Program-made: the position numbers and the translations under genes
In this document: positions 13,306-28,752 of the stretch, piece by piece
How the letters are laid out: each line of letters begins with the position of its first letter
How positions within the stretch are numbered: the stretch's first letter is position 1
Source of the DNA: Corallococcus coralloides
Lineage (GTDB): Bacteria > Myxococcota > Myxococcia > Myxococcales > Myxococcaceae
DNA length: 64,000 bases
Assembly: GCF_004104415.1 (NCBI RefSeq)
Contig: NZ_CP034669.1
Strand: one strand, 5' to 3'
The notes under the pieces: generated by a model
The model's input: only the letters and a program-made list of their open reading frames with translations
What the model was told of the DNA's origin: nothing
Database searches by the model: none

Positions 13306-13404
13306 GGCAGCCGACCGAGCACCGCTCGGAAACTTCCCAAGCCTTGCGCCCGCCCGATAGGATGTGGCGGTTTTCACTGCACTTTTTGCTGGGTGAAGGG
13401 CTTC

Positions 13405-16400: not shown

Positions 16401-18000
16401 GCTGCGCGCGGACCTGTCGGAGACGCAGGGCCTCTACGACGCGGAGCGCACCGCCCACGCGGCGCTCGCGGAGGAGACCACCGCGCGCATCCACGCCCTC
16501 ACCGGCGAGCGCGACAACCTGACCGCGGAGCTGAACGCCACCTCGCAGCAGCTGGCCGACACGCAGGGCCAGCTCGCCAGCACCCAGGACGCGCTGGCCC
16601 GCGAGGAGCAGGCCCACGCGCAGTCCCGCCAGGCCGCCGCCAGCGCCCAGGCGGAGCTCACGCGCCAGCTCACCGAGGCCCAGGCCAACGGCGAGGACCT
16701 GGCCGAACAGCTCATCGTCACCAAGCACGAGCTGGGCACGCGCGTGTCGGAAGTCACGCAGCTGTCCTCCACGCTCGCGCAGACGGAGGACGCGCGGCAC
16801 CACCTGGAGGACCGCCTCCAGACGCTCACCCACGAGTCGCAGCGCCGTGAGGAGCTCCTCCAGAACGAGGTCGACACCAAGGGCAAGGAGCTGTCGGACA
16901 CGCTCCGCAAGCTCACGCACGTGACGCAGGAGAAGATGCGTCAGGCGGAGGTGCTCAACCGCGAGGTCTCCACCCGCACGGAGCAGGTGAAGCAGCTGGA
17001 AGGCCAGCTGGAGCACCAGGCCTCCGAGGCGAAGAAGCAGGCGGACGCGCTCCACCAGCAGCTCGCCAACGTCTCCGGCGAGCTGGACGGGGCGCGCAAG
17101 GCCATCGCGGACCGCGACGGACAGCTGCAGCAGGCCGCGAACCAGCAGAAGAAGCTCACCAGCGAGCGCGACGGACTGGCCGGGCAGCTCCAGCAGGCCC
17201 AGGCCCAGGCGCAACAGCAGGCCCAGCAGGCCCAGGCCGCCGCCGCCGAGGCGAAGAAGCAGGCGGACGACCTGGCCGCGAAGCTCGCGAAGGCGGACCA
17301 GCGCATCGCGCAGCTCTCCCAGGAGGCCCAGAAGTTCGCCGCCGACACGGAGGCGAAGCTCAAGGACGCCCAGGCCCAGCTGCAGACCCGCACCAAGAAG
17401 GCCCAGGACCTGGAGCTGGCGCTGGAGAACGCCCAGAGCACCCGCGCCCGCGCGGAGAAGGACCTCAACGCGCGCGTCGCCGCGGCGGAGACCAAGGCCA
17501 ACGAGGCGGCCTCGAAGCTCGCCACGGCGCAGAAGGACCGCAAGGACCTGGAGGCCCGTCAGGCCAAGGAGCTGGAGGACCTCAACGCCAAGCAGAAGGC
17601 GGAGCTCGAGCGCCGCGAAGCCATCAAGGCGCAGGAGGTCGCCCGCCTCCAGACGTCCGTCCAGGAGAAGAGCAAGGCGCTCAAGGTCGCCGAGCTGGAG
17701 CTGGCCCGCTACAAGTCCAAGGCCCCGGCCGCCGCCCCCGCCGCGAAGGCCAGCGCCAAGGCCACCGAGGACGAGCACCTGGCCGCCACCGTCCAGGCGA
17801 ACCCGGTCATCCCGGCCGCCGCCAAGCCCCCCGCCAAGGCCACCGCCAGGCCGGCCGCGAAGAAGGCCGCTGCCGCGCCCACCCCCGTCCCCGTGGACGA
17901 GGAGGCCCCGGAGCGCACCATGGTGATGCAGCTGCCCACCGCCCCCGAAGCCGGTGGTGAGGACGACTGGACGGCGCTCGTCGACGAGCTCGACAAGTAG
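13405..18000 (+). CDS. aglZ: AglZ/FrzS-family gliding-motility protein: N-terminal pseudo-receiver domain plus a coiled-coil of about 1350 aa
   Basis: The N-terminus aligns to the FrzS receiver (RRPDLVVVRAELPDQSGFALCGQIKKGKW against FrzS RDRPDLVVLAVDLSAGQNGYLICGKLKKD); an Arg sits where the phospho-acceptor Asp is expected. The rest is heptad-rich coiled-coil with 28-aa repeats. Start is ATG at 13405, with an alternative GTG at 13393. Confidence 0.7.
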   Translation: MERRVLIVESQNDFALSMASVLKSAGYNTAMATTASDAQRELEKRRPDLVVVRAELPDQSGFALCGQIKKGKWGQNLKVLLLSSDSGVEGLNKHRETPAAADGYLVIPFEMGELASMSTGIVPPGSDESDADLDAALSGAPREAPPPMPGVRTGAPPKLPKRERRSAMTDEDKSFMDRAFSSIADRKAELLAESRQLKRPPPRRELMGTPEGKIQILRDELKTREAQLARLSEIWSVRERELLSVEDRLHEKDVELQGLKMQVDDLLRRFNDAQQSIVQKEREHGATVDDLLLQKFSSEKDLIEVVASKEKDINVLRKEVNLRDEELARRGADLESWRNEFDKLEKHLGVVTLEFEVKEQKLQDTVRANEADILQLRERGDQFESELARTVSERDQRYAELDGELQALQERLTQTEQERDATVRGLEARATTAEEHASRSDAEIERLNAERAALEQRLTQQVADLESDIARVTGERDQLRLDKDALEADLTQRVEERDAKLSALDRELQEAIARNENSEAELNATIQQHRERIGELEGEVEAVKTHLEDRENELTAELQALQQAKDALEQDLTSQLEDLRAAKDALEADLNGQIQALTEQLDASQRQGEQLSARVASLEDTVAQRDGTIEGLQTDVSDRDARIAELTGNLEATSQQLSETQNTLSSTEATLAETRGELEATSQQLSETQGTLSNTEATLAETRGELEATSQQLSETQTRLAQTEETLSTTRGELEATSQTLATTEATLADTQGTLARTEGTLADTQATLSSTEGTLAETRGELEATSQTLADTQSRLARTEETLSTTRGELEATSQTLADTQATLSSTEGTLAETRGELEATSQTLTDTQAKLAQTEGTLASTQGELEATSQTLATTESTLAQTQDTLARTEGTLADTQATLSSTEGTLAETRGELEATSQTLTQTQETLESTRADLAKVTSHRDELDAELNETRDILQETNGLLARTTEERDARIADLAALNAAKDALEQDLTGQIGQLRADLSETQGLYDAERTAHAALAEETTARIHALTGERDNLTAELNATSQQLADTQGQLASTQDALAREEQAHAQSRQAAASAQAELTRQLTEAQANGEDLAEQLIVTKHELGTRVSEVTQLSSTLAQTEDARHHLEDRLQTLTHESQRREELLQNEVDTKGKELSDTLRKLTHVTQEKMRQAEVLNREVSTRTEQVKQLEGQLEHQASEAKKQADALHQQLANVSGELDGARKAIADRDGQLQQAANQQKKLTSERDGLAGQLQQAQAQAQQQAQQAQAAAAEAKKQADDLAAKLAKADQRIAQLSQEAQKFAADTEAKLKDAQAQLQTRTKKAQDLELALENAQSTRARAEKDLNARVAAAETKANEAASKLATAQKDRKDLEARQAKELEDLNAKQKAELERREAIKAQEVARLQTSVQEKSKALKVAELELARYKSKAPAAAPAAKASAKATEDEHLAATVQANPVIPAAAKPPAKATARPAAKKAAAAPTPVPVDEEAPERTMVMQLPTAPEAGGEDDWTALVDELDK
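15340..16215. repeat. In-frame tandem repeats of about 84 bp (28 aa) inside the aglZ-like coiled-coil
   Basis: Protein repeat ETRGELEATSQ(Q/T)L(S/A)(E/D)TQ.TL(S/A).TE(A/G)TLA iterated at least 10 times. These are coding repeats, not a CRISPR array. Confidence 0.6.
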
Positions 18001-18023: not shown

Positions 18024-18058
18024 AAGGGCCCGCGCACTCCGTGGAGTGCCGGGCCCTT
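18024..18058 (+). terminator. GC-rich hairpin immediately downstream of the aglZ-like stop (putative intrinsic terminator)
   Basis: aagggcccgcgcactcc-gtg-gagtgccgggccctt forms a near-perfect stem of about 16 bp, 24 nt after the TAG at 18000. No U-tract follows, which is common in high-GC genomes. Confidence 0.35.
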
Positions 18059-18090
18059 CGTCCATCTCAGGACCGTCCTACGCCGGCGGG

Positions 18091-18315
18091 TTACAGCGCC
18101 GTGGCCGCCCGTGCCTCACGGATGAGGTCCCGGAAGTGCAGCGCGCCCACCACGTCCCGCACCACCGACACCGGACGGCCCTGTTCCCGGGCCTGCGCCT
18201 GGGCCACCCGCCAGCGCTCCAGCAACGTCCGCGTCGCGATGTACGCCAGCACGAGGGGAAAGCCCCCCGGCATCACCACCACCAACACCGCCATCGCCAG
18301 CTTCAGCCACGCCCA
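18091..18315 (-). CDS. Small hypothetical membrane protein (about 75 aa)
   Basis: MWAWLKLAMAVLVVVMPGGFPLVLAYIATRTLL... contains one TM helix and shows a strong GC3 codon bias. The N-terminal extension up to 18396 has weaker bias. Confidence 0.35.
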   Translation of the reverse strand, partial: WAWLKLAMAVLVVVMPGGFPLVLAYIATRTLLERWRVAQAQAREQGRPVSVVRDVVGALHFRDLIREARAATAL

Positions 18316-18499
18316 CATGACCCGCGACCTCGTCGTCCTGAGATACGCCCGCTTAGATGCACGGTGCATGCCCGCGGTGCGAAAATAGTTACGCACTCTG
18401 ATTCCGCAGGGTTACAGCTCCCACGGTCCTCAAGAGTGCGGACGGCGCCCCCACAACCCTGGCATTTTTGCCGCAGTCGGCGCGAAACCGTCGGTTAAG

Positions 18500-19450
18500 T
18501 TGACGGGCGTGAGCCCCCCTCGACTGACTTCGGAGATCCGCTCGTTCACCAGCGTGGAGGACGCGGCGCGTCGCCTGGAGGCGGTGGGCTACCTGTCGTC
18601 TCCTGAAATCGCCACGGCGGTGTTCCTGGCGGACCGGATGGGCAAGCCCATCCTGGTGGAGGGCCCGGCCGGCGTGGGCAAGACGGAGCTGGCCAAGGCC
18701 CTGGCGCAGGCGCTGGATCGGACCTTCCTCCGGCTCCAGTGCTACGAGGGCCTGGACGAGGCCAAGGCCCTCTACGAGTGGGAGTACGCCAAGCAGCTGC
18801 TCTACACGCAGCTGCTCAAGGACAAGATTGGCGAGCTGACGCAGGGCACGGCCACGCTGGCGGAGGCCGCGGACCGGCTCGCGTCCGGCGACGCGGTGTT
18901 CTTCTCCGAGCGCTTCCTCCTCCCCCGCCCCATCCTCCAGGCCCAGCTGTCGGACACGCCCGCGCTGCTGCTGGTGGACGAAATCGACAAGGCGGATCCG
19001 GAGTTCGAGGCCTTCCTCCTGGAGGTCCTCTCTGACAACGCTGTCACGGTGCCGGAGCTGGGGACCATCAAGGCGAAGCATGTCCCGCGCGTCATCCTCA
19101 CCAGCAACAACGCCCGCGAGCTGTCGGACGCGCTCAAGCGCCGCTGCCTGCACCTGCACATCGACTTCCCGGACCGCGAGCGCGAGCTGAGAATCGTCCG
19201 CTCGCGCCTGCCGGAGGTCCCCCAGGTGCTGGCCGAGCAGGTGGTGGAGGCCGTCGCCGCCATCCGCGCGCTGGACTTGAAGAAGGCCCCGTCCATCAGC
19301 GAGACGCTGGACTGGGCGCAGAGCCTGGCGCTGCTCAACGCGGAAGCCCTCAGCGCGGACGTCGTCGCCGCCACGCTCAACCTCGTCCTCAAATACGAAG
19401 GCGACATCGAGAAGGCCCGCGCCAACCTGCCCACCATCGCGCAGGCCTGA
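18500..19450 (+). CDS. MoxR-like AAA+ ATPase
   Basis: Walker A GPAGVGKT, Walker B LLLVDEIDKA, sensor VILTSNN, and the MoxR/CbbQ-type C-terminal helical domain. TTG start at 18500 (GTG at 18509 is an alternative). Confidence 0.75.
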   Translation: MTGVSPPRLTSEIRSFTSVEDAARRLEAVGYLSSPEIATAVFLADRMGKPILVEGPAGVGKTELAKALAQALDRTFLRLQCYEGLDEAKALYEWEYAKQLLYTQLLKDKIGELTQGTATLAEAADRLASGDAVFFSERFLLPRPILQAQLSDTPALLLVDEIDKADPEFEAFLLEVLSDNAVTVPELGTIKAKHVPRVILTSNNARELSDALKRRCLHLHIDFPDRERELRIVRSRLPEVPQVLAEQVVEAVAAIRALDLKKAPSISETLDWAQSLALLNAEALSADVVAATLNLVLKYEGDIEKARANLPTIAQA

Positions 19451-19574: not shown

Positions 19575-20525
19575 ATGAGCTCGACCTCATCCACCGTGCT
19601 GCGCGCCGAACACATCTGGCTCGATGGGAAGCTGATGAAATGGGACGAGGGCAACGTGCATGTGATGACGCACGCCCTCCACTACGGCCTCGGCGTCTTC
19701 GAGGGCATCCGCGCCTACAAGACCCATGATGGCCGACTCGCCGTCTTCCGGCTGCGCGAGCACATCCGCCGCCTGCTCGACTCAGCGCACATCATCATGC
19801 TGCAGATTCCCTACAGCGAGGATGAGCTGATCGAAGCCACGGTGGACCTGCTGCGCAAGCAGAAGCAGCAGTTCGCCAACGGCGCCTACCTGCGCCCGGT
19901 GGCCTTCATGGGCGACGGCGCCATGGGCCTGGGCGCGGTGAACCCCACCCGCGTGGGCATCACCGCCTGGGACTGGGGCGCGTACCTGGGTGACAAGGGC
20001 ATCAAGGAGGGCATCCGCGCCAAGGTCAGCTCCTTCACGCGCAACCACGTGAACGTGAACATGGTGCGCGGGAAGATCACCGGCCAGTACGTGAACTCCA
20101 TCCTCGCCAAGCGCGAGGCGGTGATGGCCGGCTACGACGAGGCCATCCTCCTGGACATCAGCGGCTTCGTCGCGGAGGCCTCGGGCGAAAACATCTTCAT
20201 GGTGAACAAGAAGGGCATCATCAAGACGCCGCCCCTCTCCTCCCCCGTCCTGGACGGCATCACCCGCGACACGGTGCTCAAGCTGCTGAAGGACGCCGGC
20301 CACACCACCATCGAGGAGGTCACCGTCACCCGTGACGCCCTCTACATCGCCAACGAGGTCTTCTTCACCGGCACCGCCGCGGAGATCACCCCCGTGCGCG
20401 AGGTGGACAACCGGCAGATTGGCGACGGCAAGCCCGGCCCCATCAGCAAGTTCGTCCAGGACATGTACTTCCGCGTCGTGCGGGGCCAGGAAGCCCGCTA
20501 TGCGGACTGGCTGACCTACGTTTGA
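19575..20525 (+). CDS. ilvE: Branched-chain amino acid aminotransferase
   Basis: Full-length class IV aminotransferase with the canonical IlvE blocks (HALHYGLGVFEGIRAY, the region carrying the PLP lysine, and TGTAAEITPVREVD). Confidence 0.9.
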   Translation: MSSTSSTVLRAEHIWLDGKLMKWDEGNVHVMTHALHYGLGVFEGIRAYKTHDGRLAVFRLREHIRRLLDSAHIIMLQIPYSEDELIEATVDLLRKQKQQFANGAYLRPVAFMGDGAMGLGAVNPTRVGITAWDWGAYLGDKGIKEGIRAKVSSFTRNHVNVNMVRGKITGQYVNSILAKREAVMAGYDEAILLDISGFVAEASGENIFMVNKKGIIKTPPLSSPVLDGITRDTVLKLLKDAGHTTIEEVTVTRDALYIANEVFFTGTAAEITPVREVDNRQIGDGKPGPISKFVQDMYFRVVRGQEARYADWLTYV

Positions 20526-20584: not shown

Positions 20585-21922
20585 ATGCCTCCCGCCGGCT
20601 ACGCGTACGAAGACAATCCCTTCAAGCTGGAGAACCCGTCCGTCCTCGACATCGCTCCAGGTGAGCCGAAGTCGCTGGAGGACACGGGCCTGAGGATGGG
20701 CCTGCTCGCGGACCTGGGCCTCAAGTTCCTCTACTACGCCGGCACCGGGACGGGCGTGGCCATCGCCGAAAGCATGTGCCTGCCCTGGTCCGGCGTGGTG
20801 GAGCACGTGGTGGACTTCCTCGCCGCGGAGAAGCTCGTGGACCTGCGCGGCGGCAAGGGCTTTGGCCGCGCGTCCGTGGAGTTCGCCCTCACGGAGAAGG
20901 GCCGCGAGTACGCGCGTGACGCCCTCACCCGCTCCACCTACGTGGGCCCCGCCCCCGTCCCGATTGAGCAGTACAACGCCCTCATCAGCAGCCAGACGGA
21001 GGAGACGCCCGTCGTGGGCCAGGAGGACCTGGTCTCCGCCCTGGGCCACCTCACCGTCTCCGCGGAGCTGATGGACAAGCTGGGCCCGGCCGTGAACTCC
21101 GGCCGCTCGCTCTTCCTCTATGGCCCGCCGGGCAACGGCAAGACGAGCCTGGCGGAGGCGATTTCCCACATGTTCGGCGGCGAGGTCTTCGTCCCGCACT
21201 GCCTGGAAATCGACAATCAGATCATCAAGGTCTTCGACCGCATCATCCACACGCCCGTGTCGCTGGAGGCGGGTCGCGACGCCAACGGCCGCCGGCAGAC
21301 CTTCGAAATGGACAAGCGCTGGTCGCTCTGCCGGCGCCCCGCGGTGGTGGTGGGCGGCGAGCTGACGCTGGAGACCCTGGATCTCATCTACTCGGAGAGC
21401 ACCCGCTTCTACGAGGCGCCGTTCCAGGTGAAGGCCAACGGCGGCATGCTCCTCATCGACGACTTCGGCCGCCAGAAGGTCCACCCCACGGACCTGCTCA
21501 ACCGCTGGATCGTCCCCCTGGAGAAGCGGGTGGACTTCCTCACCCTGCACACCGGCAAGAAGTTCGAGATTCCGTTCGATCAGCTGCTCGTCTTCTCCAC
21601 CAACCTGGACCCCAAGGAGCTGGTGGACGAGGCCTTCCTGCGGCGCATCAAGTACAAGATTGAAGTGGGCAACCCGGATGAGGAGTCCTACCGGGAGATC
21701 TTCCGCCGGGTGTGCGAGGCGGCGGGCATCCCCTACGTGGACCAGGCCATCACCTACCTGGTGGAGCACTACTACAAGCCGCGCAGCATGGAGATGCGCT
21801 CCTGCCACCCCCGCGACCTCGTGTCGCTCATCCGGGACGCCGCCCGATACCGGCAAATCCCGCCAGCCCTTTCAAAAGACCTGCTGGACCAGGCGTGCGA
21901 GGTGTTCCTGGTGAATCTCTAG
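20585..21922 (+). CDS. AAA+ ATPase with an N-terminal winged-helix-like domain (function unknown; DnaC/IstB-like Walker B)
   Basis: Walker A GPPGNGKTSLAEAI, Walker B MLLIDDFGRQ, sensor-1 LLVFSTN, Arg-finger region FLRRIKYKIEVG. The N-terminal approximately 150 aa are predicted helical. Confidence 0.7.
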   Translation: MPPAGYAYEDNPFKLENPSVLDIAPGEPKSLEDTGLRMGLLADLGLKFLYYAGTGTGVAIAESMCLPWSGVVEHVVDFLAAEKLVDLRGGKGFGRASVEFALTEKGREYARDALTRSTYVGPAPVPIEQYNALISSQTEETPVVGQEDLVSALGHLTVSAELMDKLGPAVNSGRSLFLYGPPGNGKTSLAEAISHMFGGEVFVPHCLEIDNQIIKVFDRIIHTPVSLEAGRDANGRRQTFEMDKRWSLCRRPAVVVGGELTLETLDLIYSESTRFYEAPFQVKANGGMLLIDDFGRQKVHPTDLLNRWIVPLEKRVDFLTLHTGKKFEIPFDQLLVFSTNLDPKELVDEAFLRRIKYKIEVGNPDEESYREIFRRVCEAAGIPYVDQAITYLVEHYYKPRSMEMRSCHPRDLVSLIRDAARYRQIPPALSKDLLDQACEVFLVNL

Positions 21923-22042
21923 TCGGGTTTTATTTGTTCCAACCGCGCGGAATTTCTAGACTCCGCGTGCCGTTGTACCTCCCGGCGCAGCCTCTGAGAA
22001 CCAGCGCCCGGGGCGGGCCGGAGCGAGAAGGAGCCGCAGTCC

Positions 22043-22882
22043 GTGAAGGAACGCTACCAGGACATCGACGAGAAGAACGAGCAGCTGCGCGAGTACCTTG
22101 AGATCTACAAGGGCAAGCCGCCAGCGCGTGAGTACCTCGACCGCTTCGAGATGTCGTGGATCTACCACGACGCCGCGCTCGAAGGCGTCGTGTACACGCA
22201 CCAGGAGCTGATGGCCGCGCTCTTCCCGGAGCGCACGGCGGCGGAAGCCTCCATGATCCCGGTGGTGCTGGAGATCCGCAACCACAAGGCGGTGGCGGAC
22301 TTCATCCGCGAGGAGGCCGCGGGCGCGAAGAAGCAGTCCGCGCTCACGCTCACCACCATCAAGCGGATGCACGACCTCTTCCTGGGCAACACGCCGGAAG
22401 CCCTGGCCGAGCGTGCGCGCATGGAGCGCCGCGAGCGCACGGAGAAGGAGCTGGCCAAGGAGCGCGACCGCGCGGGGCTGCGCAAGGACATGCCCCTGCA
22501 CCGCACCTACTTCCACGACATCACCCAGCCCGCGAAGATCCAGGCCCGGCTGGAGAAGCTCGTGGACCACACCGCCAGCGCGGAGTTCCGCGAGTTCCAC
22601 CCCATCAAGCAGGCGGCGGTGGTGCAGCACGAGTTCCTGCAGATCTTCCCCTTCACCGAGCACAGCGGGAAGGTGGGGCGCATGTGCAGCAACCTCATCC
22701 TGCTGCGCAACGGCTACATGCCCGCCGTCATCCACTCCATCGACCGGCAGCGCTACTACGAGTCCTTCCGCGCGCCCGTGGCCACGTTCCGCACGGTGCT
22801 GATGGACGCGATGGAGAACTCGCTGGACAACGGCGTGAAGTACTTCCGAGACCTCGGCCGCAAGTACAAGACGGTGGAGTAG
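22043..22882 (+). CDS. Fic/Fido-domain protein with a non-canonical active-site motif (FPFTEHSGKVGR)
   Basis: Aligns to the Fic core (IHPFxDGNGRxxRLLxNLLLLRxGY against IFPFTEHSGKVGRMCSNLILLRNGY). The catalytic His is replaced by Phe. GTG start at 22043. Confidence 0.75.
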   Translation: MKERYQDIDEKNEQLREYLEIYKGKPPAREYLDRFEMSWIYHDAALEGVVYTHQELMAALFPERTAAEASMIPVVLEIRNHKAVADFIREEAAGAKKQSALTLTTIKRMHDLFLGNTPEALAERARMERRERTEKELAKERDRAGLRKDMPLHRTYFHDITQPAKIQARLEKLVDHTASAEFREFHPIKQAAVVQHEFLQIFPFTEHSGKVGRMCSNLILLRNGYMPAVIHSIDRQRYYESFRAPVATFRTVLMDAMENSLDNGVKYFRDLGRKYKTVE

Positions 22883-23071
22883 CGCGGCCCGGGGCGGCGT
22901 GCCCCCGGAGGACTGGCGAGGGAGCAAGCCTCCCACCCGTCCTCCGCCGCGGCGTGAAGAACGCGCGGCACGTCGACACCATTGGGATGTTGGAAACACC
23001 CCTGGAACGTCATGGGGAGGACATCCGACTTCTCGAATCCCCGTGGCGGAGGAAGTAAAAGAAGAGTTCCC

Positions 23072-24193
23072 ATGCCCGTGACCCCGTCCCTCCAAAGCCG
23101 CCGCGCCCAGCTTCCCGCCGGGAGCGAGCTCACGGAGCCTCCGCCAGCGCGGTTGGCGAAGCTGCCCGCCGCCGACAAGCTGGCCCGCCTGCTCCAGGTG
23201 GCCAAGGGTCACCGCCGGGCGCTCATCCTCACCCACGACAACCCGGACCCGGACTCCATGGCGGCGGCGGTGTCGCTCGCCCATCTGCTGGAGCGCAAGG
23301 CCGGCATCGAGGCCCACGTGGGCTACGGCGGCATCATCGGCCGGGCGGAGAACGTCGCCTTCGTGCGCGTGCTCCGGCTGCCGGTGTCGCACGTGTCGCA
23401 GATCGACTTCAGCCAGTACGACCTCTTCGGCCTGGTGGACACGCAGCCGCCGGTGCGCAACCACTCGCTGCCGGCGCGCTACCGCGCGGACCTGGTGGTG
23501 GACCACCACCCGCTGCGCGAGGAGAGCCTGCTGGCCCCCTTCGCGGACGTGGGCGGCGACTTCGGCGCCACCTCCACCATGCTGGCGGAGTACCTGCGGG
23601 CCGCCCGGCTGGAGCCGTCCGTCGAAATCGCCACCGCGCTCTTCTACGGCATCAAGGCGGACACGCGAGACCTGGGCCGTGAGACGACCCAGACGGACGT
23701 GGACTGCTACCTGTGGCTGTTCCCCCGCTGTGACAAGCAGCTCTTGGGACAGATTGAGCACCCGGAGCTGCCGGCGCGCTTCTTCCAGCTGTTCCACACG
23801 TCCATCGAGAAGGCGAAGGTCTACGGCACCGCCATCATCACCGACCTGGAGGAGGTCTACTCCCCGGACCTGGTGGCGGAGGTCGCCGAGCGGATGATGT
23901 ACCTGGAAGGGATGAAGTGGTCCCTGGCCTACGGGACGTACCGCAACCAGCTCTTCTTGAGCCTGCGCGTGAAGGACCGGCGCATGAACGCGGGGCGCCT
24001 CATCCGCGAGCTGTGCGAGGACCTGGGCGGTTCGTCCGGCGGCCACGGCAGCATGGCGGGCGCGCGGCTGCCCCTGTCCGGCAGCGCGAGCAAGCGCAAG
24101 GCGCTCAAGCGCGAGGTGGTGTCGCGCTTCCTCGAAGCCTTCGGTGTCTCCGAGGAGCGGCCGAAGTCGCTGCTGTCCGCGCAGGACACGTGA
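23072..24193 (+). CDS. DHH/DHHA1 family phosphoesterase (NrnA-like nanoRNase/pAp phosphatase)
   Basis: DHH motifs LILTHDNPDPDSMAAAV and VVDHHPL; DHHA1 motif GGHGSMAG. Start taken at MPVTPSL (23072), which has a good RBS; the ORF track's upstream extension is unlikely to be translated. Confidence 0.75.
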   Translation: MPVTPSLQSRRAQLPAGSELTEPPPARLAKLPAADKLARLLQVAKGHRRALILTHDNPDPDSMAAAVSLAHLLERKAGIEAHVGYGGIIGRAENVAFVRVLRLPVSHVSQIDFSQYDLFGLVDTQPPVRNHSLPARYRADLVVDHHPLREESLLAPFADVGGDFGATSTMLAEYLRAARLEPSVEIATALFYGIKADTRDLGRETTQTDVDCYLWLFPRCDKQLLGQIEHPELPARFFQLFHTSIEKAKVYGTAIITDLEEVYSPDLVAEVAERMMYLEGMKWSLAYGTYRNQLFLSLRVKDRRMNAGRLIRELCEDLGGSSGGHGSMAGARLPLSGSASKRKALKREVVSRFLEAFGVSEERPKSLLSAQDT

Positions 24194-25335
24194 TCTACTG
24201 GGACCACAACGCCGCCGCGCCGGTGCGCGCGGAGGTGGGCGCGCTGCTCGCGAGGGCCTTCACGGAGGGCGGCTTCGGCAACGCGTCCAGCGTGCACGGT
24301 GGCGGACGCGAGGCCCGGGCCCGGCTGGACGCGGCGCGAGCGAAGGTGGCGCGCGTCCTGGGCTGTGAGCCGAAGGAGCTCACCTTCACCGCGTCAGGCA
24401 GTGAAGCGGACGCGCTCGCGCTGGTGGGAGCGTACGCGGCCCGCCCGGTGAAGGACCGCCGCCGCGTGGTGTCCACCACGGTGGAGCACCCGTCAGCGCT
24501 GGGCGCGCTCACGCAGTTGGAGAAGGACGGCGCCCAGGTGGTGCGGCTGGCGCCTGATTCCAACGGCCGGGTGCCGCTGGAGGCCGTGCTGGAGGCGCTC
24601 ACGCCGGACACCGCGCTGTGTTCGCTGATGTGGGCCAACAACGAGACGGGCGTGCTGCAGCCGGTGGCGGAGACCGCGCGCGCGTGCCGTCAGCGCGGCA
24701 TCCTCTTCCACACGGACGCCGTGCAGGCCGCGGGCAAGGTGCCGCTCACCTTGCGCGAAGTGGACGCGGACCTGCTCTCCCTCTCCGCGCACAAGTTCGG
24801 GGGCCCCCAGGGCGTGGGCGTGCTCGTGGTGCGCAAGGGCGTGGACGTGCGGGCGCTGACCCCCGGGCACCAGGAGGGAGGCCGGCGCGGAGGCACGCAG
24901 AACGTGCCCTACGCGGAGGCCCTGGCCCTGGCCCTGGAGCTGGCCGCCGCGGAGCAATCCAGCACCGCCGCGAGGGTCGCGGCCCTGCGAGACACCTTCG
25001 AACAGCAGGTGCTCCAGCGGCTGCCCGGGGTGACGGTGAACGGCGCTGGCGCGCCCCGGGTGCCCAACACCAGCAACCTGCGCTTCGAGGGCGTGGAGGG
25101 GGAAGCGCTGCTGATGGCGCTGGACCTGGAGGACATCCGCGTCTCGTCGGGTGCGGCCTGCGCCTCCGGCACGCTGTCCCCGTCCCACGTGCTGCGCGCC
25201 ATGGGCCTCTCCCCCGCCGAGGCGCGCTCGAGCCTGCGCTTCAGCCTGGGCCCCAGCACCACCGGCGCGGAGGTCTCCCGCGTCGTGGACGCGCTGTGCA
25301 CGCAGGTGCCCCGGGTGCGCGCCCTCGGAGGCTGA
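24190..25335 (+). CDS. Cysteine desulfurase (IscS/NifS-like class V aminotransferase)
   Basis: The track ORF 23917..25335 is over-extended. A GTG at 24190 (VIYWDHNAAAPV, the IscS-like N-terminus) overlaps the DHH stop as GTGA. PLP lysine is in SAHKFGGPQG; catalytic Cys is in SSGAACASG. Confidence 0.8.
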   Translation: MIYWDHNAAAPVRAEVGALLARAFTEGGFGNASSVHGGGREARARLDAARAKVARVLGCEPKELTFTASGSEADALALVGAYAARPVKDRRRVVSTTVEHPSALGALTQLEKDGAQVVRLAPDSNGRVPLEAVLEALTPDTALCSLMWANNETGVLQPVAETARACRQRGILFHTDAVQAAGKVPLTLREVDADLLSLSAHKFGGPQGVGVLVVRKGVDVRALTPGHQEGGRRGGTQNVPYAEALALALELAAAEQSSTAARVAALRDTFEQQVLQRLPGVTVNGAGAPRVPNTSNLRFEGVEGEALLMALDLEDIRVSSGAACASGTLSPSHVLRAMGLSPAEARSSLRFSLGPSTTGAEVSRVVDALCTQVPRVRALGG

Positions 25336-25368: not shown

Positions 25369-25542
25369 TCACCACTTCTGGTCCGGCAGGTTCTTCTCGC
25401 GGACCTCGGGGTCGGGCTGGCCGTAGCCGGGGATGCCCTCCCTGGCCTCATCGGGCTTGGGCGGGAGCCGCTCGTCGCCGTGCCGCGTCTCGCGGGTGGG
25501 CTGCTCCTGCTCGGGCTGCTGCTGCTTTCGCTCGGTCGCCAT
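25369..25542 (-). CDS. Small hydrophilic hypothetical protein (57 aa)
   Basis: MATERKQQQPEQEQPTRETRHGDERLPPKP... preceded by GGGAGGAG, with near-uniform G/C at codon position 3. It lies downstream of the kinase on the same strand. Confidence 0.4.
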   Translation of the reverse strand: MATERKQQQPEQEQPTRETRHGDERLPPKPDEAREGIPGYGQPDPEVREKNLPDQKW

Positions 25543-25650
25543 GGACTCCTCCCGGTGCATGTTCGCGGGAGGAAAGGTCATCATCCAGGGCAGGCGCCGC
25601 AGCGGGCTCCACCGGCTGGGAGCCCACGCGACAGGGCCCTGCCCGCCCGG

Positions 25651-26646
25651 CTACCCGTTGTCGTCAGAAGAAGGGCCGTTGGGCGGAGCGCCCCGGTACG
25701 CGGGCATCTCGTCCGTGGTGCCGAACAGGCCGCGCACCACCGCCGCGATGGCCAGCGGCGTCCCCACGTTCTCGTCGAAGTGCGGAGACAGCGCCTTCGC
25801 GTACTCCTCCGCGGACGAGAAGCGGTCCTCGGGGTTCTCCGCGAACGCGCGCGCCAGCACGTCGTCCAGCGCCTGCGGGATGTCCGGACGCACCGAGCGC
25901 AGGAGCCGGTACTTGCGCGACAGGATGCCCGCGAAGACCTCCTCCGGCGTCGAGCCCACGAAGGGCCGGCTCAGCGTGAGCAGCTCGTAGAGCACCACGC
26001 TCGCGGCCCACAGGTCCGCCTCCGGCGTGACGGCGCCCTGCAGCGACTCCGGGGACAGGTAGTACGGCTTGCCCAGCACCTCGCCGCCCTGGAGCTTGCC
26101 GTCCACCAGCACGCGCGACACGCCGAAGTCGCCCAGCTTGATCTCCCCCACGCGGGAGATGAACAGGTTGGACGGGGACACGTCGCAGTGGACGATGCCC
26201 AGCGGCTTGCCGTCCGGGCCGGTGGCGGTGTGCGCGTACGCGAGCGCCTCCAGCAGCACCTTCGCCAGGTACACCGCGAAGTCGACGGGGAGCGGAATCC
26301 CGCGCGCCTTGCACCGGCGCAGGATGTGGCCCAGGTCGCGCCCGTCCACCAGGTCCATCACCAGGAAGGACACGTCGTCCAGCATCCCGGCGTCCAGCAC
26401 CTTCACGATGTTCGGGTGGTCCAGCTGGCGCGACAGCTGCGCCTCGCGGCGGAAGAGGTCCACCGACGCCGGGTCGCGGGTGAGCGCGGGCAGCAGCCGC
26501 TTGAGCGCGACCGTCCAGCCTTCGTAGGGACCGGAGCGCACGCGCGCGCGGTACACCTCGGCCATGCCGCCCTTGCCCAGCAGCGATTGGATTTCGTAGT
26601 TGCCGAAGACGCGGATGGGCTTCGGCACGGGAGTCGGCGCGTTCAC
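25651..26646 (-). CDS. Hanks-type Ser/Thr protein kinase with an atypical catalytic loop (HCDVSPSN; non-RD, lacks the loop Lys)
   Basis: Gly-loop LGKGGMAEVY, VALK lysine, DFG (LGDFGVS) and SPE are all present. The catalytic loop reads HCDVSPSN instead of HRDLKPxN. Confidence 0.8.
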   Translation of the reverse strand: MNAPTPVPKPIRVFGNYEIQSLLGKGGMAEVYRARVRSGPYEGWTVALKRLLPALTRDPASVDLFRREAQLSRQLDHPNIVKVLDAGMLDDVSFLVMDLVDGRDLGHILRRCKARGIPLPVDFAVYLAKVLLEALAYAHTATGPDGKPLGIVHCDVSPSNLFISRVGEIKLGDFGVSRVLVDGKLQGGEVLGKPYYLSPESLQGAVTPEADLWAASVVLYELLTLSRPFVGSTPEEVFAGILSRKYRLLRSVRPDIPQALDDVLARAFAENPEDRFSSAEEYAKALSPHFDENVGTPLAIAAVVRGLFGTTDEMPAYRGAPPNGPSSDDNG

Positions 26647-27644
26647 GGGCTGGCGCTTCCAGCTCCTTGCGGATCACGGCCCTGGACCCGCCTGCGGCCG
26701 CGGGCCTGCTTCAACTGCGCCTCGTACACCGTTCCCTCTTTGGCGAACTGCTGGAGCTCGCGCTCCACCAGCACATTGCCCTCCGGCGGAGACCAGCCTT
26801 CCGACAGCGCCCGCCGCAGCGCCTCCTGGGCCACCCGCGGCTCCCGGGCCGCGCGCTTCACGCACGCCATCCAGAACCAGGCCTCCGCCCGCGCCGGTCC
26901 AGGGCCCACGCTGCGCGCCTGCTCCAGGTACCTGAGCGCCTCCGGCTGCTGATTCAGCAGGAAGTGCGACACGCCCATGCCCGTCAACGCCCAGGCGTTG
27001 TTCTTCTCCTTCTCCTGCGCCAGCACCAGCTGGAACTGCCGCGAGGCGGCGATGGGGTTCTGGGCCAGCAGGGACTGCCCCTGCTTCAGGGTCGCCGCCA
27101 CGTCCACCGGCTCCAGCCGGCGCTGCGCGGCCACCTGCGCGGCCCCACCGGACGGAGGAGGCACGGGAGCCTGCGCCTGACGCTGCTCGGGTACCTGCGC
27201 CGACACGGGCGTCAGCGTCGGCGTCAGCGCGGCCCCCTGCTCCGCCGCACGGAGCACCAGCATCCGGTTCTTGGGCAGGGCCGGGGACTCGCAGCTGTCC
27301 TCCAGCTTCACCACGCCGCCCAGCGCCCGCTCCTCCACGTTGTAGACGAGCATCACCGGGAAGCTGCGGGACGGGGTGCAGGTGTCCCCTGTCTGACAGA
27401 GCGTGAGCTCCCCCAGGAAGACGTTGCCCTGGAAGTCTCCCGTCAGGATCTGCTCGGCGACCGGGCGCTGGCAGGGCCCCCCGGCCGGCGCCGTGCCGAC
27501 GAGATGCTCCCCGTCCGAGCGCAACTCGATGGGGCCGAAGGCATCCGCCTGGTAGGTACTGTTCATCTGCGGACCCGCCCAGGCGAATCCGGAGGCGAGG
27601 CAGGCTACCGCCGCGAGAGCCAATGTTGGGGTCGGGAGCGACAT
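26643..27644 (-). CDS. Secreted protein with a Cys-containing N-terminal domain and C-terminal TPR-like repeats; translationally coupled to the kinase
   Basis: Start at MSLPTPTLALAAVACLASGFAWAG (signal peptide) at 27644. Five Cys lie in the first 120 aa; helical repeats lie in the C-terminal half. Its stop overlaps the kinase ATG (ATGA). Confidence 0.6.
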   Translation of the reverse strand: MSLPTPTLALAAVACLASGFAWAGPQMNSTYQADAFGPIELRSDGEHLVGTAPAGGPCQRPVAEQILTGDFQGNVFLGELTLCQTGDTCTPSRSFPVMLVYNVEERALGGVVKLEDSCESPALPKNRMLVLRAAEQGAALTPTLTPVSAQVPEQRQAQAPVPPPSGGAAQVAAQRRLEPVDVAATLKQGQSLLAQNPIAASRQFQLVLAQEKEKNNAWALTGMGVSHFLLNQQPEALRYLEQARSVGPGPARAEAWFWMACVKRAAREPRVAQEALRRALSEGWSPPEGNVLVERELQQFAKEGTVYEAQLKQARGRRRVQGRDPQGAGSASP

Positions 27645-28015
27645 GTCGGGGACCCGGGCATCATAGAAGTCCACGGGGCGGCTTGTAAACGCGCGAGGAC
27701 GGCTTGACCGCACGCTTCTCCATCCTTATCATTTTTCCAGAACGCCCTGGGATTTTCCCAGTGATTCTAAGGACTTGTAGCGAGCTTTGAAGCAGTAAAG
27801 GTCTGTTCCCTGCGGGGTGCGTGATGCCCAGCAGAAATTCGAACCGATACGTCCATTCCGGGGTCCGTTTCGGTCGCCATGTGCAAGCCCTCCCCCTTCA
27901 CCGGGGATGAGGGAAGCCTGCGGTGACATGATTTCGGTCCCCACCTGGCTTCTAAGGGTTCAATGGACGCTGGACACACGGCTCGGCGGGGGACTCTTTC
28001 TTTGGAGCGGCGGCG

Positions 28016-28648
28016 GTGAGCGAGACGGCGGCGGATACGGTGGCGGCGGCGGCGGAGAAGAAGGTAACGCTTCGTGAGGAGCTGACGGCGCGCCGCAAGG
28101 CGATGACCAATGACCTCATCGACGAGCGTGGCCTCAAGGTCCAGTCTCGATTCCTGGCATCGCCCTACTATCAGAATGCGCGGACGGTAGCCCTCTACGC
28201 CCCCATCCGGGGCGAGGTGCCTACCCGGGACATCCTCATCGCGGCGCTGCAGGACGAGAAGATCGTCTGCTACCCGCTGTCCCACGTGCACGGGCGCATC
28301 CTGGCCTTCCGGGCCATCAAGTCGGAGAGCGAGCTGGAGCCGGGACGCCTGGGCGTCCGGGAGCCCACGAACTCCTCGGATTTGATCGCGGTGGATCAGA
28401 TCGACCTGTTCGTGGTGCCCGGCCTGGGCTTCAGCCCGGACGGCAAGCGGCTGGGGCGCGGCGGTGGCTACTACGACGCCACCCTCAAGGCGGCCAGCTC
28501 GCGCAGCCGCCGGGTGGGGCTGGCCTTCAACGACCAGATCGTCCAGGTGCTGCCCACGACGAGCGACGACGTGGACATGGACCAGATCGTCACGGAGAGC
28601 CAGACGCTGCGCGGCCTGTGCCGCAGCTTCGACTTCCTGGACACCTGA
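28016..28648 (+). CDS. 5-formyltetrahydrofolate cyclo-ligase (MTHFS/YgfA family)
   Basis: Family blocks are present (YAPIRGEVP, FVVPGLGFSPDGKRLGRGGGYYD). GTG start. Confidence 0.8.
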   Translation: MSETAADTVAAAAEKKVTLREELTARRKAMTNDLIDERGLKVQSRFLASPYYQNARTVALYAPIRGEVPTRDILIAALQDEKIVCYPLSHVHGRILAFRAIKSESELEPGRLGVREPTNSSDLIAVDQIDLFVVPGLGFSPDGKRLGRGGGYYDATLKAASSRSRRVGLAFNDQIVQVLPTTSDDVDMDQIVTESQTLRGLCRSFDFLDT

Positions 28649-28752
28649 CCGGTACCTGAGCCGCGGGACAGGCGGGGTGACAGCCACGGGTGGGGCGGAC
28701 ATGGAAGTCCCGCCCTGCCCGTCGTCTTTTTTGGGCTAGTGTCCGCGGCGCC

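What the first reader, a model, noticed from the sequence alone, without database searches (positions are those of the whole stretch)
22043..22882. Fic-domain protein in which the catalytic histidine of HxFx(D/E)GNGR is replaced (FPFTEHSGKVGR)
The fold-defining residues around the motif are conserved (IFPFTE...GR..SNLILLRNGY). The invariant His that acts as the catalytic base for AMPylation or phosphocholination is Phe, and GNG is HSG. This points to a nucleotide-binding but non-transferase Fic, or one using a different chemistry. A DAALEG segment near the N-terminus partially resembles the inhibitory-helix (S/T)xxxE(G/N) motif.
Basis: seen in the sequence. Interest (0 to 1): 0.55.

Follow-up and report, generated by a model that had tools for sequence, protein, structure and literature searches.

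The report
Histidine-less Fic-fold protein of myxobacteria
This gene encodes a well-conserved myxobacterial relative of the human AMP-transferase FICD that has lost the catalytic histidine, so it probably binds a partner or ligand, or uses a different chemistry, rather than transferring AMP; neither alternative has been tested.

Summary
Window 22043-22882 (+) is a real 279-aa gene of a Corallococcus genome. It passes the Pfam Fic model, and a high-confidence AlphaFold model superposes on human FICD (TM 0.77). A family profile aligns without gaps to the FICD active-site loop: H363→F202, D367→E206, G368→H207, N369→S208, G370→G209, R371→K210, R374→R213. The inhibitory-helix Glu234 corresponds to E47 in DAALEG. 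No alternative register supplies a histidine.

This is not a one-off decay. The same altered motif, [FY]P[FW]xxx[ST]G[KR]xxR, is kept in about 265 diverse relatives across both Myxococcia and Polyangia. Synonymous codon turnover shows purifying selection on it. The flap (YRKDxPLHRxYFHE) is nearly invariant.

The gene is chromosomal and not part of a toxin-antitoxin pair. It has conserved neighbours only within Myxococcia. In other lineages, Lys/Arg/Ala/Pro-rich tails have been added at least three separate times, which hints at polyanion (nucleic-acid?) association.

The best reading is a non-AMPylating pseudo-Fic binding module. The main rival is a histidine-independent enzyme, as AvrB turned out to be. 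I found no description of this clade in the papers searched. It is a new variant of a known kind, of moderate interest.

The parts
22027..22033 (+). Shine-Dalgarno-like GAAGGAG, 9 nt upstream of the GTG start
   Evidence: Read directly from the sequence. Orthologs have the same length and N-terminus (MKERYQ...), which supports this start.
22043..22882 (+). CDS of the 279-aa His-less class II (FICD-like) Fic-fold protein
   Evidence: ORF list. Pfam Fic at 5e-11. AF2 model with pLDDT 92.9. Foldseek top hit is FICD with TM 0.77. Orthologs at 63-99% identity in 78 Myxococcia loci.
22169..22186 (+). Inhibitory-helix motif DAALEG (residues 43-48; E47 corresponds to FICD E234)
   Evidence: In the family, D43 is 89% conserved, E47 94% (the rest Asp) and G48 100%.
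22391..22477 (+). Charged helical insertion TPEALAERARMERRERTEKELAKERDRAG (residues 117-145), present in the Myxococcia sequences of alignment A1 (window, P0020, P0123) and in one distant member as a differently composed stretch (P0133)
   Evidence: This is a gap in most other family members in alignment A1. It is the lowest-confidence part of the model, with block pLDDT 66-79. Translation.
22478..22522 (+). Flap region LRKDMPLHRTYFHDI (residues 146-160), 2 residues longer than in FICD and nearly invariant in the family
   Evidence: Conservation: R147 99%, P151 93%, H153 94%, R154 93%, Y156 98%, H158 98%. The profile alignment to the FICD flap (residues 311-324) shows a 2-residue insertion (PMC4342408).
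22646..22681 (+). Degenerate Fic signature FPFTEHSGKVGR (residues 202-213) in place of HPFx(D/E)GNGRxxR
   Evidence: Family logo: position 202 is F56/Y40/W2, P203 100%, position 208 is S82/T11, G209 99%, position 210 is K73/R17, R213 100%. Codon turnover with the amino acid retained: S208 uses AGC, TCC, TCG and TCA; R213 uses CGN and AGR.
22742..22762 (+). Conserved DRQRYYE segment (residues 234-240), aligned to FICD QRSDYYH
   Evidence: R235 100%, Q236 94%, Y238 99%, Y239 95%. Alignment.

Best explanation
The gene encodes a member of a previously uncharacterised clade of FICD/HYPE-like class II Fic-fold proteins found across Myxococcota. The clade has permanently lost the AMP-transfer machinery. 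The general-base His is always an aromatic residue, the Asn of GNG is Ser or Thr, and the Mg2+-binding acid is not conserved (it is Lys in about half the family and Glu in this Myxococcia branch). The fold, the active-site loop conformation (Pro, Gly), a basic residue at R1, R2, the inhibitory-helix Glu and above all the target-docking flap are kept. I infer that it works as a non-catalytic 'pseudo-Fic' binding module. In this view the elongated, invariant flap and the cationic remnant of the anion nest (S208-G209-K210...R213, plus R147, R154 and R235) hold a conserved partner or a phosphate-bearing or polyanionic ligand. Nucleic-acid or nucleoid association is the most likely setting, because relatives have repeatedly acquired histone-H1-like Lys/Arg/Ala/Pro tails. 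Shown: the fold, the register, the loss of catalytic residues, the purifying selection, the distribution, and the tails in relatives. Inferred: that it binds rather than catalyses, and what it binds.
For: Fold and register. The lost residues have established roles: H363 is the general base, D367 binds Mg2+, N369 and R371 bind the diphosphate, and R374 pairs with E234 (PMC6826200, PMC4342408, PMC12974487). The substitutions are fixed across the family and not random. In about 265 diverse sequences position 202 is F, Y or W. Only two canonical HPFxDGNGR sequences appear, at the far edge of the hit list (E about 1e-19 to 1e-20). All 120 Polyangia hits have F or Y at this position. Selection acts at the codon level. 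The gene is chromosomal, vertically inherited and stand-alone. Synteny exists only within Myxococcia and contexts are unrelated in distant members. Plasmids and phages carry only canonical Fic at 23-36% identity. Polycationic low-complexity tails are found at the N-terminus in the main Polyangiaceae/Sorangium clade, at the N-terminus in a separate lineage (P0167/P0170), and at the C-terminus in P0172 and P0188. Their nearest relatives are untailed. There is a precedent for a non-canonical FIC domain that acts by binding, namely BepC (PMC8401265).
Against: The former active site keeps an unusually rich set of invariant polar residues (E47, H153, R154, Y156, H158, S208, K210, R213). That pattern is at least as typical of an enzyme as of a scaffold. 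The Myxococcia branch, including this protein, still has Glu at the Mg2+ position. This protein itself has no polycationic tail, so the nucleic-acid link is by association with relatives only. AvrB, another His-less Fido protein long thought non-enzymatic, proved to be a rhamnosyltransferase (PMC10866546).
Confidence: 0.5

Rival explanations
1. It is an active enzyme with a histidine-independent chemistry. The remodelled pocket would supply the catalytic residues: E47, S208, K210 and R213, plus the family-specific flap residues H153, R154 and Y156 and the FICD-shared H158. A Lys would often replace the Mg2+-binding acid. Such a pocket might catalyse a different transfer or hydrolysis on a phosphate-containing substrate, by analogy with AvrB (rhamnosyl transfer), AnkX or Doc.
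For: Several polar residues around the former active site are near-invariant. The hydrophobic pocket walls equivalent to FICD V360 and L403 are retained (PMC4342408). The Khater and Mohanty survey argued that selection on variant motifs implies function (PMC4454073). AvrB lacks the His yet is a glycosyltransferase (PMC10866546).
Against: No candidate general base or acid is conserved at or next to position 202; it is Phe in 56% of the family. The metal-binding position is not conserved within the family (K53, E14, D6). No operon partner suggests a substrate pathway. The segment with FICD's adenine-contacting Asn407 is missing.
Confidence: 0.3
2. It is a regulatory partner of another protein encoded nearby. 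The candidates are the upstream 445-aa AAA+ ATPase (20585-21922) and the downstream DHH/DHHA1 phosphoesterase (23072-24193). The pseudo-Fic would act as an adaptor or allosteric subunit.
For: The order BCAT-(AAA_445)-FicL-DHH is kept on the same strand in most of 80 Myxococcia loci. DHH directly follows FicL in most of them, including many that lack AAA_445. No terminator-like site was detected in the 21800-23200 region scanned, which includes both flanking spacers.
Against: AAA_445 is absent from many loci. Neither neighbour accompanies the family in Polyangia or in the other metagenomic members examined. Synteny inside one class can be plain vertical inheritance. The one apparent FicL-DHH 'fusion', P0131, is a frameshift read-through.
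Confidence: 0.12
3. It is a normal AMPylating Fic enzyme whose histidine is supplied by a local insertion or a different alignment register.
For: H207 lies inside the loop and H196 six residues upstream.
Against: Single-sequence and profile alignments to FICD are ungapped through helix, loop and helix. H207 is H, N or Y among close orthologs, and N, H or D family-wide. H196 is Y, F or H. The Asn of GNG is lost as well.
Confidence: 0.02
4. It is a decaying pseudogene, a mis-called ORF, or part of a FicTA toxin-antitoxin or defence island.
For: The motif is degenerate. There is a generic hit to the PADLOC candidate PDC-S04 (Fic-like) at 1e-15.
Against: The gene is full-length with a conserved start and length in 78 loci. 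Synonymous turnover with amino-acid retention is seen. There is no small antitoxin ORF, and the inhibitory helix is intramolecular. Neighbours are housekeeping genes (BCAT, NifS). No close relative is found on plasmids or phages.
Confidence: 0.02

Closest known systems
Human FICD/HYPE (and C. elegans FIC-1), class II Fic AMPylase/deAMPylase of BiP
   Same: This is the best sequence and structure match: profile E=9e-40 over about 230 residues, and Foldseek TM 0.77. Both have an N-terminal inhibitory helix with Glu. Both have R2 paired to that Glu. Also shared are the 'RLLMNLxL', 'GYxP' and 'RxxYY' elements and a His at the flap position (H158, FICD H319).
   Different: There is no TPR domain and no membrane anchor. 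H363→F, G368→H, N369→S and R371→K. The T of the (S/T)xxxE(G/N) motif is D. The flap has a 2-residue insertion. The AANE segment that contains the adenine-binding N407 is absent (PMC4342408). Both FICD activities need H363.
Bacterial class II Fic proteins with a canonical motif (B. thetaiotaomicron BT_2513, PDB 3CUC; C. difficile Fic, PDB 4X2E)
   Same: Same single-domain size and class II topology. Profile E=3e-29 for 3CUC and 1.5e-15 for 4X2E.
   Different: They keep HPFx(D/E)GNGRxxR.
AvrB/AvrC (Pseudomonas syringae Fido effectors)
   Same: Fido fold without the catalytic His. The small Pro and Gly loop residues are retained (PMC2686095). They show that His-less Fido proteins can still be enzymes, here rhamnosyltransferases (PMC10866546).
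   Different: No detectable sequence relationship was seen here. AvrB has a large domain inserted in the hairpin and no inhibitory helix, and it is a secreted effector.
Bartonella BepC and other Beps with non-canonical FIC motifs
   Same: [quoted passage not shown]
   Different: BepC keeps the catalytic His and the PFxxGN core. It is class I-derived and is a T4SS effector with a BID domain.
Doc clade D2 (Qx[FY]x[DE][GV]NKR) in the Khater and Mohanty survey
   Same: A clade-wide replacement of the catalytic His that is maintained by selection (PMC4454073).
   Different: It belongs to the Doc subfamily. The replacement is His→Gln, not an aromatic, and the D/E, N, K and R residues are kept.

Membership tests
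Fic/Fido domain superfamily (Pfam PF02661) | Significant match to the family HMM above the gathering threshold | tested here: met
   43.7 bits against a cutoff of 24, E=5.3e-11, residues 101-220.
Fic/Fido domain superfamily (Pfam PF02661) | All-helical Fido core with a helix-loop-helix active-site element and a flap | tested here: met
   AF2 model with pLDDT 92.9 and pTM 0.90. The top 49 Foldseek PDB hits are all Fic proteins, and FICD gives TM 0.77.
Catalytically competent Fic AMP-transferases | Signature HPFx(D/E)GNGRxxR with the invariant general-base His | tested here: not met
   The sequence is FPFTEHSGKVGR. Of the specified positions, P, F, the acid, G2 and R2 match. H, G1, N and R1 do not.
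Catalytically competent Fic AMP-transferases | AMP (or other NMP) transfer to a target or to itself | not testable with these tools
   This needs a biochemical assay.
Class II Fic proteins (Engel et al. classification) | Intramolecular inhibitory helix N-terminal to the core, carrying (S/T)xxxE(G/N) | tested here: inconclusive
   The helix is in the right place, and E47-G48 align to FICD E234-G235. The first motif position is Asp, not Ser or Thr (D 89%, E 10% in the family).
FICD/HYPE orthologs | TPR domains and an N-terminal membrane anchor preceding the Fic domain | tested here: not met
   The 279-aa protein has only the Fic module. No other Pfam domain was found.
FicTA toxin-antitoxin modules (class I) | Adjacent small antitoxin gene that supplies the inhibitory helix in trans | tested here: not met
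   The neighbours are a 445-aa AAA+ ATPase and a DHH/DHHA1 protein. The inhibitory helix is intramolecular.
Doc toxins | HxFx(D/E)GNKR motif and pairing with Phd | tested here: not met
   The motif differs and there is no Phd-like neighbour.
AvrB-like Fido glycosyltransferases | Large 'upper lobe' domain inserted in the beta-hairpin; sequence similarity to AvrB | tested here: not met
   The flap is only 2 residues longer than in FICD. No AvrB chain appears among the PDB sequence or fold hits listed.
PADLOC defence candidates (PDC-S04, SoFic) | Specific HMM match and defence-island context | tested here: inconclusive
   PDC-S04 at 1.2e-15 and SoFic at 1.4e-10. These are comparable to generic Fic homology. 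The context is housekeeping.

The most novel reading that the evidence does not exclude
The clade is a histidine-independent enzyme or a specific 'reader' built on the FICD deAMPylase-state pocket. The Glu-Arg2 pair is preserved, a Lys often replaces Mg2+, and the flap is invariant and elongated with H153, R154 and Y156. It could recognise or process a phosphodiester-linked modification (for example an AMPylated or nucleotidylated residue, or a nucleic-acid end) on a conserved target associated with the myxobacterial nucleoid. That would be a new Fido activity class and would be conserved across a whole phylum.
Probability: 0.2. Interest if true: 0.8.

Novelty: new variant of a known kind. Interest (0 to 1): 0.5.

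Why it matters
Fic proteins are defined by their catalytic histidine. Published surveys list motif variants that keep it or change it to Gln in a small Doc clade. Here a large, vertically inherited clade across Myxococcota, close to FICD, has replaced the His with an aromatic residue. It has conserved the inhibitory Glu, R2 and the target-docking flap even more strictly than canonical enzymes do. The clade may be a pure binding module or may use a new chemistry. In either case it gives a natural experiment on what the Fic pocket and flap can do without AMP transfer. It also gives a tractable genetic system, Myxococcus xanthus, in which to find out. The repeated fusion to histone-H1-like tails supplies a concrete, testable lead towards nucleoid or nucleic-acid association.

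Tried and rejected
1. Alternative register with a histidine: rejected. The alignments are ungapped and nearby His residues are not conserved.
2. Pseudogene or artefact: rejected on conservation and codon data.
3. Toxin-antitoxin, defence or mobile context: there is no antitoxin and no close plasmid or phage relatives, and the PADLOC hit is generic.
4. Conserved operon partner across the family: not found outside Myxococcia.
5. Pfam domains in the long N-terminal extensions: none. They are low-complexity polycationic tails.
6. The apparent FicL-DHH fusion P0131 is a frameshift read-through.
7. Promoter and terminator scans around the gene found nothing.
8. Rfam found nothing in the flanking spacers.
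9. The first attempt at search for related loci with the 59-sequence alignment failed because no stretch was conserved enough. It was repeated with 15 sequences.
10. The afdb50 fold library was unavailable, so I got no organism names from AFDB.
11. Cluster look-ups returned almost no taxon names. Taxonomy came from named hits.
12. Model coordinates were not exposed. I could not measure distances between conserved residues, map electrostatics or dock ligands.
13. Literature searches for Myxococcus Fic proteins or 'pseudo-Fic' found no description of this clade.

Full report
**1. What is there**

Window 22043-22882 (+) is an ORF of 279 codons that starts at GTG, 9 nt after a GAAGGAG Shine-Dalgarno sequence. 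Its product is 98% identical to a 'Fic family protein' of Corallococcus exercitus. It is 72-90% identical, at the same length, to proteins of Myxococcus, Hyalangium, Stigmatella, Cystobacter and Archangium. The window is therefore a Corallococcus chromosome segment and the gene is real.

The protein passes the Pfam Fic model (43.7 bits, cutoff 24). No specific NCBIfam model claims it; the only hits are sub-threshold ones to 'mobile mystery protein B' and SoFic.

**2. The motif register**

phmmer against PDB sequences puts human FICD first. It aligns IFPFTEHSGKVGRMCSNLILLRNGY to [25 protein letters not shown] without a gap, and YHDAALEGV to YHTVAIEGN.

I built a profile from 59 diverse relatives. 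It matches FICD at E=9e-40 over about 230 residues with the same ungapped register through helix, loop and helix. The correspondences are:

| Query residue | FICD residue | FICD role |
|---|---|---|
| F202 | H363 | general base |
| E206 | D367 | binds Mg2+ |
| H207 | G368 | anion hole |
| S208 | N369 | binds diphosphate |
| G209 | G370 | anion hole |
| K210 | R371 | binds beta-phosphate |
| R213 | R374 | R2; gamma-phosphate, pairs with E234 |
| E47 | E234 | inhibitory Glu |

These roles are established for FICD (PMC4342408, PMC6826200, PMC12974487).

The closest histidines cannot substitute. H207 is H, N or Y even among close orthologs, and H196 is Y, F or H across the family.

**3. Fold**

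An AlphaFold2 model built on the 59-sequence alignment has mean pLDDT 92.9 and pTM 0.90. The only soft region is residues about 120-150. Foldseek against the PDB returns only Fic proteins at E≤1e-3. It is led by FICD (TM 0.77, about 20% identity), followed by B. thetaiotaomicron BT_2513, C. elegans FIC-1 and C. difficile Fic.

This is a class II Fic fold with the inhibitory helix N-terminal to the core.

**4. A fixed, selected state and not decay**

An exhaustive HMMER scan of 1.84 billion cluster representatives found 2220 relatives at E≤1e-3, 388 at E≤1e-10 and 93 at E≤1e-30. Among the best 150, every sequence with an alignable, intact motif lacks the His except two canonical HPFxDGNGR proteins. 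Those two lie at the far edge of the list, at E about 1e-19 to 1e-20.

Conservation in about 265 diverse members:

| Element | Position | Residues (%) |
|---|---|---|
| Signature motif | 202 | F56, Y40, W2 |
| | 203 | P100 |
| | 204 | F48, W45 |
| | 206 | K53, E14, D6 |
| | 208 | S82, T11 |
| | 209 | G99 |
| | 210 | K73, R17 |
| | 213 | R100 |
| | 217 | N97 |
| Inhibitory helix (W-I-Y-H-D-x-A-L-E-G) | 42 | H98 |
| | 47 | E94, D6 |
| | 48 | G100 |
| Flap (Y-R-K-D-x-P-L-H-R-x-Y-F-H-E-I) | 147 | R99 |
| | 153 | H94 |
| | 154 | R93 |
| | 156 | Y98 |
| | 158 | H98 |
| Post-core segment | 235 | R100 |
| | 238 | Y99 |

The flap is the most conserved element. It carries a 2-residue insertion relative to FICD.

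In 78 Myxococcia loci the motif residues are kept while codons turn over. S208 is encoded by AGC, TCC, TCG and TCA. R213 is encoded by CGC, CGG, CGA, AGG and AGA. That is direct evidence of purifying selection on the 'degenerate' motif.

**5. Distribution**

- Named hits to the window protein are Myxococcaceae and Archangiaceae.
- A profile of distant members retrieved 1340 proteins at E≤1e-10. Almost all are unnamed metagenomic sequences; one is labelled Polyangia.
- The Fic domain of a long-form member retrieved 2105 proteins at E≤1e-20. Among the best 120 listed, the named ones include Sorangium cellulosum, many Sorangium spp., Polyangiaceae and Sorangiineae. All 120 listed carry F (103) or Y (17) at the His position, with the motif [FY]PFxxDSGKV[AS]R.
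- A scan of one genome per species found more than 587 loci. The best 80 are all Myxococcota, apart from one record labelled Comamonas that is clearly Myxococcus-like.
- tblastn against plasmids and phages found only Fic genes at 23-36% identity.

The clade is therefore chromosomal, vertically inherited and present in both major classes of Myxococcota. I could not determine whether it occurs outside the phylum.

**6. Genomic context**

In the window the + strand order is as follows:

| Coordinates | Gene product |
|---|---|
| 13393-18000 | receiver plus long coiled-coil protein |
| 18046-18498 | small ORF |
| 18500-19450 | MadB-like AAA ATPase |
| 19575-20525 | branched-chain aminotransferase |
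| 20585-21922 | 445-aa AAA+ ATPase |
| 22043-22882 | the Fic-like gene |
| 23072-24193 | DHH/DHHA1 phosphoesterase |
| 24193-25335 | NifS-type cysteine desulfurase |
| 25480-26952 | 490-aa ORF with no family hit |

The BCAT-(AAA)-FicL-DHH block is kept in most Myxococcia loci. DHH follows FicL in most of them, including many where the AAA gene is missing.

In distant members the neighbours are unrelated. They include nitroreductase, OEP, patatin with TPR, a Ser/Thr kinase, and a ribosomal and tRNA-modification cluster. There is no antitoxin-like small ORF and no defence-island signature. The gene behaves as a stand-alone housekeeping-type gene. A partnership with the DHH or AAA neighbours remains possible but is supported only by synteny within one class.

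**7. A lead from domain architecture**

About 10% of diverse members (23 of 225) carry N-terminal extensions of 100-430 residues. A few carry C-terminal ones. These extensions have no Pfam domain. They are Lys/Arg/Ala/Pro/Ser/Thr-rich, typically 17-39% K+R (usually with few acidic residues), and have AKK/KKTAKK-type or Arg/Glu-rich repeats reminiscent of histone H1 tails. Sorangium versions contain tandem DKPQRAS/DRPQRAS repeats.

The main N-tail group is one clade, Polyangiaceae/Sorangium. P0167/P0170 (N-terminal tail) and P0172 and P0188 (C-terminal tails) have untailed nearest relatives. The tails were therefore acquired at least three times.

Repeated addition of a polycationic tail at either end suggests the Fic-like module works on or next to a polyanion such as DNA, RNA or polyphosphate. 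The window's protein has no such tail. It has only a charged helical insertion (residues 117-145) that most other family members in the alignment lack.

**8. Mechanistic reading**

Shown: the general base is gone. The Asn that binds the diphosphate is now Ser or Thr. R1 is Lys or Arg. The Mg2+ ligand is not conserved family-wide. The FICD segment that contains the adenine-contacting Asn407 has no counterpart (PMC4342408). Canonical AMP transfer and FICD-type deAMPylation both need H363, so both are very unlikely.

Also shown: the loop-shaping Pro and Gly, R2, the Glu that pairs with it, the hydrophobic pocket walls (equivalents of FICD V360 and L403) and the flap are all under strong constraint.

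Inferred (confidence about 0.5): the protein is a pseudo-Fic that uses the flap and the cationic nest to bind a conserved partner or a phosphate-bearing or polyanionic ligand. BepC offers a precedent for a FIC domain acting by binding (PMC8401265).

The main rival (about 0.3) is a histidine-independent enzyme. The density of invariant polar residues would fit that reading. AvrB, a Fido protein without the His, was recently shown to be a rhamnosyltransferase (PMC10866546).

**9. Comparison with the literature**

The large in-silico survey of Fic and Doc proteins lists five motif classes. Four keep the His. The fifth is a 45-member Doc clade with Gln in its place. No F/Y-for-His Fic clade is described (PMC4454073). 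The C. fetus 'degenerate' Fic2 and the Bartonella non-canonical Beps keep the His. Searches for Myxococcus Fic proteins or pseudo-Fic returned nothing relevant.

Within the limits of the searchable library, the clade is annotated only as 'Fic family protein' and is uncharacterised.

**10. Verdict**

'Non-transferase' is well supported, 'nucleotide-binding' is unproven, and 'different chemistry' remains open.

The finding is a new variant of a known kind: a conserved, His-less, FICD-like Fic clade spread across a phylum. Interest is moderate (0.5). Pseudoenzyme branches are common in large families. However, this one is unusually large, is ancient within its phylum, is close to the medically relevant FICD, and comes with a concrete testable lead.

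Noticed in passing
window 27804-27996 (+): A full-length 6S (SsrS) RNA match: Rfam RF00013, 68.3 bits against a gathering score of 46.4, E=2e-11. It is the only Rfam hit in the window, and no tRNAs are present. It overlaps a mechanical ORF on the minus strand (27767-28702).
   Followed up: no
window 13393-18000 (+): A 1535-aa protein with an N-terminal response-regulator receiver domain followed by about 1400 residues of coiled coil (crescentin/SMC-like hits). This resembles the Myxococcus gliding-motility protein AglZ. That identification is from memory of AglZ's architecture. The locus tag MXAN_2991 was only seen in PMC4546325. The gene is conserved upstream in many Myxococcaceae loci.
   Followed up: partly
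window 18500-19450 (+): A 316-aa AAA ATPase that matches NCBIfam 'MadB family AAA-type ATPase' at E=7.5e-105 (350 bits) but falls below the curated cutoff of 475. It is preceded by a 150-aa ORF with no family hit. A literature search for MadB in Myxococcus found nothing relevant.
   Followed up: partly
window 20585-21922 (+): A 445-aa AAA+ ATPase directly upstream of the Fic-like gene. It is more conserved than the Fic-like gene itself (74-99% identity across loci). It gives only weak partial hits to the anti-phage ATPases IteA/IetA and to TRIP13. It is absent from that position in a number of lineages.
   Followed up: partly
window 25480-26952 (+): A 490-aa ORF with no Pfam, NCBIfam or PADLOC hit. 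It is conserved in the synteny block. In three divergent Cystobacterineae-type MAG loci (L077, L078, L080), a weak homolog (27-30% identity) lies directly downstream of the Fic-like gene.
   Followed up: no
window 24191-24195: The stop codon of the DHH/DHHA1 gene and the start of the NifS-type cysteine desulfurase overlap by one base (DHH ORF ends at 24193; the NifS translation starts at 24193). This suggests translational coupling.
   Followed up: no
L013 (BNCN01000003.1, titled Comamonas sp. KCTC 72670): This record carries the complete Myxococcus-type synteny block, with an 87%-identical Fic-like gene. The genome record is probably mislabelled or is from a myxobacterium.
   Followed up: no
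P0131 (649 aa, metagenomic): This looks like a Fic-like plus DHH fusion. However, the C-terminal 400 residues are out-of-frame-looking Arg/Pro-rich sequence with patches of DHH similarity (37% over 245 aa). It is most likely a frameshift read-through and not a true fusion.
   Followed up: yes
P0196 (788 aa, 4.2-kb metagenomic contig): YjeF_N and carbohydrate-kinase (NAD(P)HX repair, Nnr-type) domains lie N-terminal to a long linker and a His-less Fic-like domain. This is a single example. It could be a genuine fusion or a merged gene call.
   Followed up: no
P0441, P0458, P0514 (Sorangium orthologs): The N-terminal tails contain tandem heptad repeats DKPQRAS/DRPQRAS, with 3 to 12 copies in different strains.
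   Followed up: no
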